Assembly: GCF_009914755.1 (NCBI RefSeq)
Contig: NC_060940.1
Reading direction: 5' to 3' (one strand)
Length of the DNA stretch: 64,000 bases
Source of the DNA: the human T2T-CHM13v2.0 reference genome, Homo sapiens
Part shown: piece after piece, positions 35,501 to 38,500 of the stretch
Numbering within the stretch: position 1 is the first letter of the stretch
Layout: the number at the start of each line of letters is the position of its first letter
Position numbers and translations under genes: made by a program
The notes under the pieces: model-generated
Databases searched by the model: none
What the model was told of the DNA's origin: nothing
Seen by the model: the letters and a program-made list of their open reading frames with translations, nothing else

Positions 35501-38500
35501 GTCATAAAGGAAATCCACACTTGGAATCCTGGCCTTTGTCCCTGTGTAGTCTGTGCTCTTACTAAGTCTGCAAGAAATCATAATTCAGTGCACATATTCC
35601 ATGGGGAAGAAGTAATCTGGAAACTGAAAGTGAAAAGTTGCAGAGTACTGGCTCTGCTATGGAGGGGCTGTGTGACCTCAAGCAATTCACTTCCCCTCTC
35701 TGGGCTTTGTTTGTAATTGTTTACAACTTATTTACAAATTGTTTGCAATTGTTTACAAGTTGTTTACACATTGTTTGCAATTGTTTACAAATCGTTTGCA
35801 ATTGTTTACCAATTCTTTGCAATTGTTTACAAATTGCCCTTGTTTACAAATTGAATGTCAGAATAACTCTCAAAATTCTCTTCTTTCCATCCATATAGAC
35901 CCTGCTGATTCACTCATCCACTTACCAAGCATGGAGTTTCTCCTGTTTGCCAGGCCCTCTTCTACATACCAGGGACACAGCAGTGAAAAGATAGATGTCT
36001 TCTCTGCTGTTAGGAAACTTACATTTTCGTGGGGAGAGAGAGATGAAAAATGAGTACACAACTACACAGACATGATCTAGTTACAAATCCTAAAGACTGC
36101 TATTCAGGGAAGAAAGAGGCAGAGTAGGAAGACAGAGTGGCTGGGGTCAGGATTGGGGGGTTAGTTTGGATAAGAAGGCCCAGAAAGATCTCTAAGAGGA
36201 GGGCTATTTAAGGAGCAAAAGATTCATGTTAAGGTCTACACAAGAACATTCCAGGGACTAGCAAGGGCAAAGGCCCTGGGAAGGATGTGAATCAGATGTG
36301 TTCTAGAAACAGAAATAAGACCAGTGTGCTTGGAGCTTATTGAGGTGGGGAGACAGTGGGAGGAGATGAGGAGGGAGAAGTAGGCAGGGGCTGTATCATC
36401 ATCACCTTGATAGATGCAGCCAGGTTTATTCTGTGGCATTCCCATATATCCAGTGAGATGCCACTGAAGAGTTTCAGGTTTCAGGGAGTGACCTGGCCTG
36501 AGGTCCAATTTTCAAAGGACCTCAGCCCATACATGAATGAGCAGGGTCTCTACGGATGGAAAGAAGAGAATTTTGAGAGTTATACTGACATTCAATTTGT
36601 AAACAAGGGCAATTGGTAAACAATTGCAAATGATTTGTAAACAATTGCAAACAATTTGTAAATAAGCCCAGAGATGGGAAGTGAATTGCTGGAGGTCACA
36701 GCCGATCCATGGCAGAGCCAGGACTCTGCAACTTTTCACTCTTAGTTCCCATGTGCACTGATACTGTGTTTACTCTGGTGCTGTGTCCGCATAGACTGCA
36801 GGGGGCAAGAGCGGGAGTGGGAGGAGAAGTTGGGCCAGTGATGAGAAACACCATTAGTGATTCATCTCTTCTCTGAGTGCCCACCCTGAGGGGTTAAGCA
36901 GCCGGAGCAATGCATCTTCTTTTGAATGTTCCGAGCTCCCCATCTCAAAGGACCACATGGAGATTCATGTCTCAGGCAGAGTGGCAATTTCCTTACACTT
37001 GGCAAAAACGTATGCTTGGCAAGAACTGTGACAGTAATACTGTGTTTGAACCCCTGTTTTGGGCTAAGCTGTGGGGGCACAGCAGAGAGCAAGTCAGGCA
37101 TGCATTCCAATCTCACGGAGCTTCCAGTCTAGCCCTCGTCCACCTGTCACTTGCTAGAAATACCTGGTCTTGGGTTTGAAGCTCCTGAAGCAGTGGGAGA
37201 GGTGGTTTACCCCCAGGAAATGTTTTCCTAGCCTTGGATCACAGCAGGTTGTCTTATCCTCCCAGGGCTGCAAGTCATTTTGTACATAAACGAAGAGGAA
37301 TACAACCCATTCCTCGTGTCCTCCACTGGAGCTAAGGTGATCATCCATCGGCAGGATGAGTATCCCTTCGTCGAAGATGTGGGAACAGAGATTGAGACAG
37401 CAATGGTCACCTCTATAGGAATGCACCTGGTAAGAGAATATTCTCATTTCCATAGGCTTGGAGAGAACAGATCTTTTTTTTTCCAAGGATAACCAATGGG
37501 GTGCAGCTTATGGAAAAGGGTGTTTGTTTCAAAAGGGAACATGGTCCCAGATTTTCCCATGGTTATCCCATTCATTTCAGGAGTTACATTAAAGGTTGTG
37601 TTTGTATCTTCTGGCCGGCTGCAGTGGCTCACACCTGTAATCCTAGCACTTCAGGAGACCGAGGTGAGGTCAAGAGTTTGAGACCAGCCTAGCCAACTTG
37701 GTGAAACCTGTCTCTACTAAAAATACAAAAAATTAGTTGGGTATGGTAGTGTGTGCCTGTAATACCAGTTACTAGGGAGGCTGAGGCAAGAGAATAGCTT
37801 GAACCCAGGAGGAGGAGGTTGCAGTGGGCCGAGATCACGCCACTGCACTCCAGCCGAGCAACAGAGCAAGACTCCATCTCAAAAAAAAAAAAGGTTGTAT
37901 TTGTATGGATTAATAGGACAGGGTGCCATTTGGGGAGAGAATTTCAAGACACCAGCATTTATGGAACCTATGCTGGAAGCAAGGCATTAGGACACTAACT
38001 ATATATTTGTCAGTAATACAAACAGATAAGATTACCGTCTATCTTTCTGGGCTGCTTAGAGGCCTATGAGGCATGTCAATAACTGTATTAAAGCCTAGTG
38101 GAAAGTCACTCAGCTATCCAAAGTCTATTTAGCCCATTACACTCCTGTCAATTTTACCTCATTTACCAAGAACCCCTTCTCCCTCCAAATTTGACCTTTG
38201 TGGACCTCATTGGGCACTGAGAACATGCAAACCTATCAACAGAAGCACAAGTAAGCCGCAGACTCCAATCCCCGAGTCAGCCTTGCCCAATGGGAGCTGA
38301 ATGGCAAGATGAAGAGTGGACTCTGATGGCCTTGGTCACTCCACTGCTTATGGAGTTTTCTTGTTTGCAGGCCTGGGGTCTTTTTATTCCAGTATCTATC
38401 TGCCTCTCCCTTTCTCTCTTTCATAGAATGACTGTTAAGAACTTATTTAGACCGGGCACAGTGGCTCATGCCTATAATCCCAGCACTTTGGAAGGCCAAG

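What the first reader, a model, noticed from the sequence alone, without database searches (positions are those of the whole stretch)
35708..35847. Helically phased forkhead-motif array in SCNN1G intron 5
Seen: twelve TGTTTRC-like units start at 35708, 35718, 35729, 35740, 35750, 35761, 35772, 35782, 35793, 35803, 35814 and 35824, a mean spacing of 10.55 bp, with one more TGTTTAC at 35841. Seven are TGTTTAC, one TATTTAC and two TGTTTGC; most overlap ATTGTT (SOX/HMG core). The array sits inside a MIR-like segment. Established: TRTTTRC is the forkhead core (FOXA1/2, FOXI1, FOXO), and 10.5 bp is the B-DNA helical repeat. Inference: all sites face one side of the helix, so this could be a repeat-born homotypic enhancer or pioneer-factor landing pad in an epithelial ion-channel gene. 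Five more sites lie in the mirror arm (36599, 36616, 36637, 36647, 36658).
Basis: partly seen in the sequence, partly recalled or inferred. Interest (0 to 1): 0.8.

Follow-up and report, generated by a model that had tools for sequence, protein, structure and literature searches.

The report
Forkhead-motif minisatellite in SCNN1G intron
The evenly spaced forkhead-like motifs are real, but they are the copies of a decayed 21-base tandem repeat that grew inside an old SINE fragment and was later duplicated in inverted orientation, and nothing yet shows that it regulates the sodium-channel gene.

Summary
Observation confirmed. Twelve TGTTTRC-like units start at the stated places, spaced 10 or 11 nt apart (mean 10.55). 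Nine of them match TRTTTRC exactly. A tenth exact copy at 35841 is out of phase.

All of this is one tandem repeat, 35707-35836. It has period 21 (a 10-nt plus an 11-nt sub-unit), 6.1 copies and 80% matches. The motif count and the 10.5-nt phase therefore come from one slippage-prone unit, not from twelve independent sites.

The array begins right after a dispersed SINE core that I recall as the MIR core (35667-35705). It lies in the left arm of a 1.15-kb inverted duplication: arms about 35613-35913 and 36533-36758, spacer 621 nt, 92% over 132 nt. The arms differ by three indels of 22, 32 and 21 nt inside the array.

Array and tail occur nowhere else in this genome. In the pre-mRNA the arms are predicted to pair over 203 base pairs.

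No test favoured function. Cores are not better kept than linkers (p=0.44). There is no 10-bp WW signal (rank 960 of 3193). No RefSeq functional element lies here, and I found no paper on it. It is most likely neutral repeat DNA. A forkhead-bound enhancer is untested and I put it near 10%.

The parts
35707..35836 (+). Degenerate tandem repeat (minisatellite). Period 21 with consensus TTGTTTGCAATTGTTTACAAA, also read as period 11 (12.0 copies) or 32. It holds the twelve phased forkhead-like units.
   Evidence: TRF, (period 21: 6.1 copies, 80% matches, score 165); the repeat finder family D1; unit table.
35841..35847 (+). Thirteenth TGTTTAC, set apart from the array by TGCCCT and out of helical phase (-120 degrees at 10.5 nt). 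It is present in both arms.
   Evidence: arm alignment.
35667..35705 (.). Dispersed SINE core directly 5' of the array. The names MIR and CORE-SINE are recalled; I judge it to lie in reverse orientation.
   Evidence: this stretch alone matches 13 other loci of the same genome at 80-95%. Alignment with 7 of them.
35613..35913 (+). Left arm of the inverted duplication: SINE core, array, then a 54-nt tail. It sits in what looks like the ancestral context.
   Evidence: (I1, I3, I4); a chr12 locus (L014) has the same core followed within about 29 nt by the sequence that here follows the arm.
35914..36532 (+). Spacer of about 620 nt between the arms. It is old interspersed-repeat sequence (L2-like by recollection).
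   Evidence: only 3 weak matches elsewhere in the genome (75-84% over 55-108 nt).
36533..36758 (-). Right arm, an inverted copy of the left arm with a shorter array (6 units, 5 of them exact TRTTTRC on the - strand, 36593-36665).

Best explanation
This is a decayed minisatellite, not an assembled set of binding sites.

A short stretch inside an old SINE copy, just after its conserved core, began to duplicate head to tail. Replication slippage or unequal exchange is the likely cause. The result is a 21-nt unit made of a 10-nt half (TGTTTGC+AAT) and an 11-nt half (TGTTTAC+AAAT). The unit contains the forkhead-type core, and its halves average 10.5 nt. Every copy therefore adds two such cores one helical turn apart.

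Later a segment of about 225-300 nt was copied in inverted orientation about 620 nt downstream. That segment held the core, the array and a 54-nt tail. After the copying, three more slippage events of 22, 32 and 21 nt (2, 3 and 2 sub-units) made the left array 75 nt longer than the right.

Shown: the array, its unit structure, the inverted duplication, the three indels, uniqueness in this genome, and the predicted RNA stem.

Inferred: the slippage mechanism, which arm is the parent, an age of tens of millions of years, and that the DNA is selectively neutral with forkhead cores as a by-product.
For: - One array by TRF: period 21, 6.1 copies, 80% matches. The 10/11 alternation follows the GC-type and AC-type halves exactly.
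- Inverted arms: 132 nt at 92% (I1). Outside the array 135 of 152 aligned positions are identical, and 124 of 134 within conservative arm limits.
- With free gaps, the arrays align with three gaps of 22, 32 and 21 nt. The rare variants TATTTAC, C-first GC unit and ACCAAT come in the same order in both arms.
- The array and tail match only themselves and the mirror arm in the 3.1-Gb assembly. A 30-nt degenerate array pattern with up to 3 mismatches hits only this locus plus two weak chrX hits, against 4 for the reversed control.
- The 39 nt before the array are a dispersed repeat core.
- No sign of constraint: 4 of 84 core positions changed against 4 of 43 linker positions, p=0.44.
- Array divergence between arms is 1 of 74 against 10 of 134 in the flanks, Fisher p=0.10. 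Simulations that include the aligner's bias gave one mismatch or none in 2-11% of runs.
- WW 10-10.8-nt power is 0.59, rank 960 of 3193 frames.
- Single-stranded array DNA folds only slightly better than shuffles (z=-1.86, 7 of 200 as good). This fits a quasi-palindromic, slippage-prone unit.
- The hub's table lists no RefSeq functional element here.
- Passages of PMC11701250 say forkhead is among the commonest TF families matched by expression-linked VNTR motifs. Passages of PMC7145552 say FoxA1 sites are enriched in L2 and that MIR and L2 gave many sites. Motif-bearing repeats of this kind are therefore common.
Against: - The array is unusual as a motif cluster. Ten of the window's 14 TTGTTTAC lie in the two arms, against 2.24 +/- 1.48 expected.
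- Three exact TGTTTRC in a row at 10-11-nt spacing occur at only 5 loci in the genome. This is the only locus with three overlapping hits, that is 5 exact units in a row. The other four have 3-4 units.
- The shared part of the array is nominally better kept between the arms than the flanks are (1 of 74 against 10 of 134), although this is not significant.
- SCNN1G is enriched in FOXI1-positive airway ionocytes of the ferret (passages of PMC10533402), so a forkhead input to this gene is not absurd.
- Neutrality is inferred from missing evidence. I saw no chromatin, ChIP, conservation or population data.
Confidence: 0.8

Rival explanations
1. The array, with its inverted partner, is a repeat-born homotypic forkhead enhancer or pioneer-factor landing pad. 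Several FOX proteins load on one face of the helix and open chromatin for SCNN1G in airway, colon or kidney epithelium.
For: - 10 exact TRTTTRC on one strand in 130 nt, 7 of them TTGTTTAC.
- Twelve units in phase within about 50 degrees at 10.5 nt.
- It is the longest such phased run in this genome.
- It lies in a gene that is enriched in FOXI1-positive ferret ionocytes (PMC10533402 passages).
- MIR- and L2-derived FoxA1 sites used as enhancers are documented (PMC7145552 passages).
Against: - Phase and number are explained by the repeat unit.
- Cores are not kept better than linkers.
- There is no significant excess conservation between the arms.
- RefSeq lists no functional element here, though it lists five elsewhere in the window (hub table).
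- In mouse kidney Scnn1g marks principal cells and Foxi1 marks intercalated cells (10.1101/183376 passages).
- Neighbours on one face at one turn are about 36 A apart (10.5 x 3.4 A, my arithmetic). Full occupancy may therefore be sterically limited; this is inference.
- No paper on this place was found.
Confidence: 0.1
2. The inverted duplication matters as RNA. In the SCNN1G pre-mRNA the two arms pair into a stem of about 200 bp that is edited by ADAR or alters the folding and splicing of intron 5. The forkhead cores would be irrelevant.
For: - MFE fold of 35600-36770: -547.1 kcal/mol with 203 arm-to-arm pairs, against -315 +/- 6 for 20 mononucleotide shuffles.
- Both arms lie in one intron on the sense strand.
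Against: - The stem is a prediction only.
- Rfam has no match here. The only hit was SNORD75 at E=0.83 and 16.9 bits against a gathering score of 50.
- One paper holds both 'SCNN1G' and 'A-to-I', and by its listing it is unrelated.
- Such intronic inverted repeats are common and mostly without known effect (established knowledge).
- The stem ends about 500 nt before exon 6.
Confidence: 0.05
3. The array is a structural DNA element: intrinsically bent DNA or a nucleosome-positioning sequence, because A/T tracts recur once per helical turn.
For: TTT and AAAT/AAT tracts recur every 10-11 nt.
Against: - The WW-dinucleotide power at 10.0-10.8 nt for the 147-nt frame at 35700 is 0.59. That ranks 960 of 3193 frames in the window (median 0.41, maximum 2.14).
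- G and C sit about half a period apart within the unit, which cancels the fundamental. This is my reading of the unit.
Confidence: 0.03

Closest known systems
Minisatellite / VNTR-type tandem repeats that carry transcription-factor motifs
   Same: Head-to-tail copies of a 10-32-nt unit. Indels come in whole sub-units (22, 32 and 21 nt between the two arms). The unit holds a TF core. Forkhead is named among the commonest TF families matched by expression-linked VNTR motifs (PMC11701250 passages).
   Different: Length variation among people was not tested. SCNN1G does not occur in the 4 held supplement files of that paper. The copies are 20% diverged, so the array may no longer be very mutable.
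MIR/L2-derived forkhead binding sites co-opted as enhancers
   Same: It lies in old SINE/LINE-type repeat sequence with forkhead cores. That class is documented for FoxA1 in MCF-7 cells (PMC7145552 abstract and passages).
   Different: There the motif comes from the element's own sequence, spread by retroposition. Here the cores were multiplied locally by tandem duplication, and the array is found at no other copy of the element. Binding is not shown here.
Intronic inverted repeats forming dsRNA, such as inverted Alu pairs
   Same: Two arms of 225-300 nt in one intron, about 92% complementary, predicted to pair over 203 bp.
   Different: This is not an Alu pair but a local inverted duplication of unique sequence plus a SINE core. 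Editing is not shown.

Membership tests
Tandem repeat (minisatellite) | Head-to-tail copies of a unit of about 10 nt or more, detected above score threshold | tested here: met
   35707-35836, period 21, 6.1 copies, 80% matches, score 165. Also period 11 (12.0 copies) and period 32.
Tandem repeat (minisatellite) | Copy number changes in whole units | tested here: met
   the two arms differ by gaps of 22, 32 and 21 nt inside the array. Variation among people was not testable.
MIR (CORE-SINE) derived sequence | Holds the conserved core that is dispersed in many copies over the genome | tested here: met
   35667-35705 matches 13 other loci at 80-95%; alignment with 7 of them shares only this core.
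MIR (CORE-SINE) derived sequence | Match to the curated MIR consensus over head, core and tail | not testable with these tools
   No repeat library (Dfam, Repbase) was on hand. The name rests on my recollection and on the description of a roughly 65-bp CORE in PMC7145552.
Forkhead-bound homotypic enhancer | Cluster of consensus forkhead cores | tested here: met
   10 exact TRTTTRC in 35718-35847; 7 TTGTTTAC there. The meaning of these consensus strings is recalled, not taken from a motif library.
Forkhead-bound homotypic enhancer | Factor occupancy, open chromatin, enhancer marks or reporter activity | not testable with these tools
   No ChIP, ATAC or MPRA data could be reached. The hub's RefSeq table lists no functional element at 35.7 kb.
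Forkhead-bound homotypic enhancer | Motif cores kept better than the sequence between them | tested here: inconclusive
   4 of 84 core positions against 4 of 43 linker positions, p=0.44; 1 of 74 in the array against 10 of 134 in the flanks between arms, p=0.10.
Nucleosome-positioning / bent DNA with 10-bp WW periodicity | Strong 10-10.8-nt periodicity of AA/TT/AT/TA dinucleotides | tested here: not met
   power 0.59, rank 960 of 3193 frames.
Known structured RNA family (Rfam) | Match at or near a family's gathering score | tested here: not met
   the only hit is SNORD75, 16.9 bits against a gathering score of 50, E=0.83.

The most novel reading that the evidence does not exclude
A lineage-specific minisatellite born from a SINE fragment has given SCNN1G a one-sided row of up to ten forkhead sites. 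It is the longest such phased run in the human assembly, and an inverted partner lies 0.8 kb away. It would act as a forkhead-dependent intronic enhancer, for example FOXI1 in airway ionocytes or FOXA in airway and colon. Its unit number would tune ENaC-gamma expression between people.
Probability: 0.08. Interest if true: 0.6.

Novelty: new member of a known kind. Interest (0 to 1): 0.2.

Why it matters
As it stands it matters little. It is one more decayed tandem repeat in an intron, and it shows how a repeat unit can mimic a designed, helically phased site array.

If the array did bind forkhead factors, it would be a clean natural test of how site number and phase affect pioneer-factor loading. 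It could also be a copy-number variant acting on ENaC, a channel relevant to blood pressure and airway fluid.

Tried and rejected
- Chance clustering: rejected. One search gave 53 matches against 32.4 +/- 5.4, and the excess lies in the two arms.
- A transposon family with long terminal inverted repeats: rejected. The arms, apart from the SINE core, and the spacer have no full-length relatives in the genome. The chr12 relative L014 has one core only.
- A known RNA gene or miRNA hairpin: no Rfam match.
- Nucleosome or bending signal: not met.
- Constraint on the cores or on the array: not significant.
- MAFFT's single-gap alignment of the arrays put the marker variants out of register. I replaced it with the three-gap alignment, which had 440 co-optimal paths of which I used the first.
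- My first impression that L014 keeps the same core-to-spacer distance as the window was partly coincidence. The order is collinear but the spacings differ.
- Literature: 'SCNN1G' with 'intron 5' gave 0 papers. With VNTR it gave 10 papers, with FOXA1 and ChIP-seq 10, and with intron and enhancer 31. By listing, and for three of them by passages, none deals with this place. 'SCNN1G' with 'A-to-I' gave 1 unrelated paper.
I sent it again with two.

Full report
**What is there**

The spacings are 10,11,11,10,11,11,10,11,10,11,10 nt, mean 10.545.

Nine of the twelve match TRTTTRC exactly: 6 TGTTTAC, 1 TATTTAC and 2 TGTTTGC. Three are degenerate: TGTTTGT at 35708, CGTTTGC at 35793 and TCTTTGC at 35814. 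A further TGTTTAC sits at 35841.

In the whole window TRTTTRC occurs 53 times, against 32.4 +/- 5.4 in 100 shuffles. The excess is the ten + strand sites here and the five - strand sites at 36599-36658. ATTGTT overlaps 7 of the 12 units.

At a 10.5-nt helical repeat the twelve units stay within -17 to +34 degrees. The thirteenth is 120 degrees off. By the hub's exon table the place is intron 5.

**What makes it**

Tandem Repeats Finder reports one array, 35707-35836. It can be read with period 21 (consensus TTGTTTGCAATTGTTTACAAA, 6.1 copies, 80% matches, score 165), period 11 (12.0 copies) or period 32.

The 10-nt units are the TGTTTGC+AAT type and the 11-nt units are the TGTTTAC+AAAT type. 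The 10.5-nt mean is therefore simply half of a 21-nt unit. The number and the phase of the cores are one property of one repeat, not twelve coincidences.

As single-stranded DNA the array folds only slightly better than shuffles (z=-1.86; 7 of 200 shuffles as good). That fits a quasi-palindromic unit prone to slippage. The slippage itself is inference.

**Context**

The 39 nt before the array (35667-35705) match 13 other loci of the same assembly at 80-95%. The array and what follows it match nothing but the mirror arm. An alignment with 7 of those loci shares only that core.

I recognise the core as the MIR (CORE-SINE) core from memory. No repeat library was available to confirm it. The array starts where the other copies continue with their own post-core sequence, so it probably grew out of the element's own sequence; this is inference.

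**The mirror arm**

The repeat finder gives an inverted pair, 35781-35912 with 36534-36665: 132 nt, 92% complementary, 621 nt apart. Further pairs extend the arms outward to about 35618 and 36751.

MAFFT aligns 35612-35913 with the reverse complement of 36533-36758, with 75 extra nt in the left array. Outside the array, 135 of 152 aligned positions are identical. Within conservative limits (35629-35705 and 35854-35912) it is 124 of 134, that is 7.5% divergence.

A gap-tolerant alignment resolves the 75 nt into three gaps of 22, 32 and 21 nt. It brings three rare variants into the same order in both arms. The array therefore existed before the duplication and changed length at least three times afterwards.

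A chr12 locus (L014) has the same core followed after about 29 nt by the sequence that follows the left arm here. This suggests that the left arm is the parent, and that array plus tail (35706-35907) are local additions. This rests on one locus.

From 7.5% divergence and a recalled neutral rate near 1e-9 per site per year, the duplication would be some 30-40 Myr old. This is inference and could not be checked, because no other primate genome was available.

**Uniqueness**

A 30-nt degenerate array pattern with up to 3 mismatches hits this locus twice, plus two weak chrX hits. The reversed control gives 4.

Three exact TGTTTRC at 10-11-nt spacing give 7 matches at 5 loci, against 5 for the control. 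Three of the 7 overlap here. The other four loci hold 3-4 units each.

This is therefore the longest phased run of this core in the assembly. The pattern was defined after seeing the array, and the tool warns that its counts are lower bounds.

**Tests bearing on function**

- Cores against linkers within the left array: 4 changes in 84 positions against 4 in 43, Fisher p=0.44.
- Between the arms: the shared array part has 1 mismatch in 74, the flanks 10 in 134, p=0.10. In simulations with the same aligner at 6-9% divergence, one mismatch or none arose in 2-11% of 400 runs each. This is suggestive at most.
- Nucleosome-type WW periodicity: power 0.59, rank 960 of 3193 frames. Not met.
- RefSeq functional elements: five in the window, none here (hub table).
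- Rfam: nothing.

**A by-product of the inverted repeat**

Folded as RNA, 35600-36770 gives -547.1 kcal/mol with 203 arm-to-arm pairs. Twenty mononucleotide shuffles gave -315 +/- 6. The extra left-array units are bulged out (35707-35760 and 35814-35834). The pre-mRNA is thus predicted to carry a long double-stranded stem. Whether it is edited or has any effect is unknown.

**Literature**

- 'SCNN1G' with 'intron 5': 0 papers.
- The listings for SCNN1G with enhancer/intron, FOXA1/ChIP-seq and VNTR, and passages of three of those papers, say nothing about this place.
- Passages of PMC11701250 say forkhead is among the commonest TF families matched by expression-linked VNTR motifs. SCNN1G is absent from its 4 held supplement files.
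- The abstract and passages of PMC7145552 document MIR/L2-derived FoxA1 sites.
- Passages of PMC10533402 report SCNN1G enriched in FOXI1-positive ferret ionocytes.
- Passages of 10.1101/183376 place Scnn1g in principal cells and Foxi1 in intercalated cells of mouse kidney.
- Supplements of the bioRxiv papers were not seen.

**Verdict**

The most likely reading (0.8) is a neutral, decayed minisatellite inside an inverted local duplication of old repeat DNA. Its forkhead cores and helical phase are by-products of the unit. A forkhead-bound enhancer remains possible (about 0.1) and is cheaply testable against public chromatin tracks.

Noticed in passing
window 35600-36770: The two arms are predicted to pair in the pre-mRNA over 203 bp: -547 kcal/mol against -315 +/- 6 for 20 shuffles. 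The extra left-array units are bulged out. This is a possible ADAR substrate that is not an Alu pair.
   Followed up: partly
window 35727-35853 with 36593-36666: The shared part of the array differs between the arms at 1 of 74 positions, a CG/CA change. The flanks differ at 10 of 134. This is not significant (p=0.10; simulation 2-11%). Gene conversion or constraint cannot be excluded.
   Followed up: yes
L014 (G000:C12, about positions 1500-2150 of the locus): A chr12 locus has the same SINE core followed by the same downstream repeat sequence in the same order as the window's left arm and spacer, but without the array and tail.
   Followed up: partly
L019 and L020 (two chr10 loci), L024 (chr17), L025 (chr21): These are short runs of 3-4 TGTTTRC at 10-11-nt spacing. 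The two chr10 loci share an identical 27-nt match. All look like small local tandem repeats.
   Followed up: partly
window 36500-36524 and 36933-36957: A direct repeat of 25 nt at 76% identity flanks the right arm region (family D5). It may be chance or old repeat sequence.
   Followed up: no
window 9018-9261, 21569-21879, 42242-42409, 58071-58240: Large simple-repeat arrays: AGAA/AAGG types, AGGA/AAAG types just upstream of SCNN1G exon 1, (GATG)42 and (AT)91.
   Followed up: no
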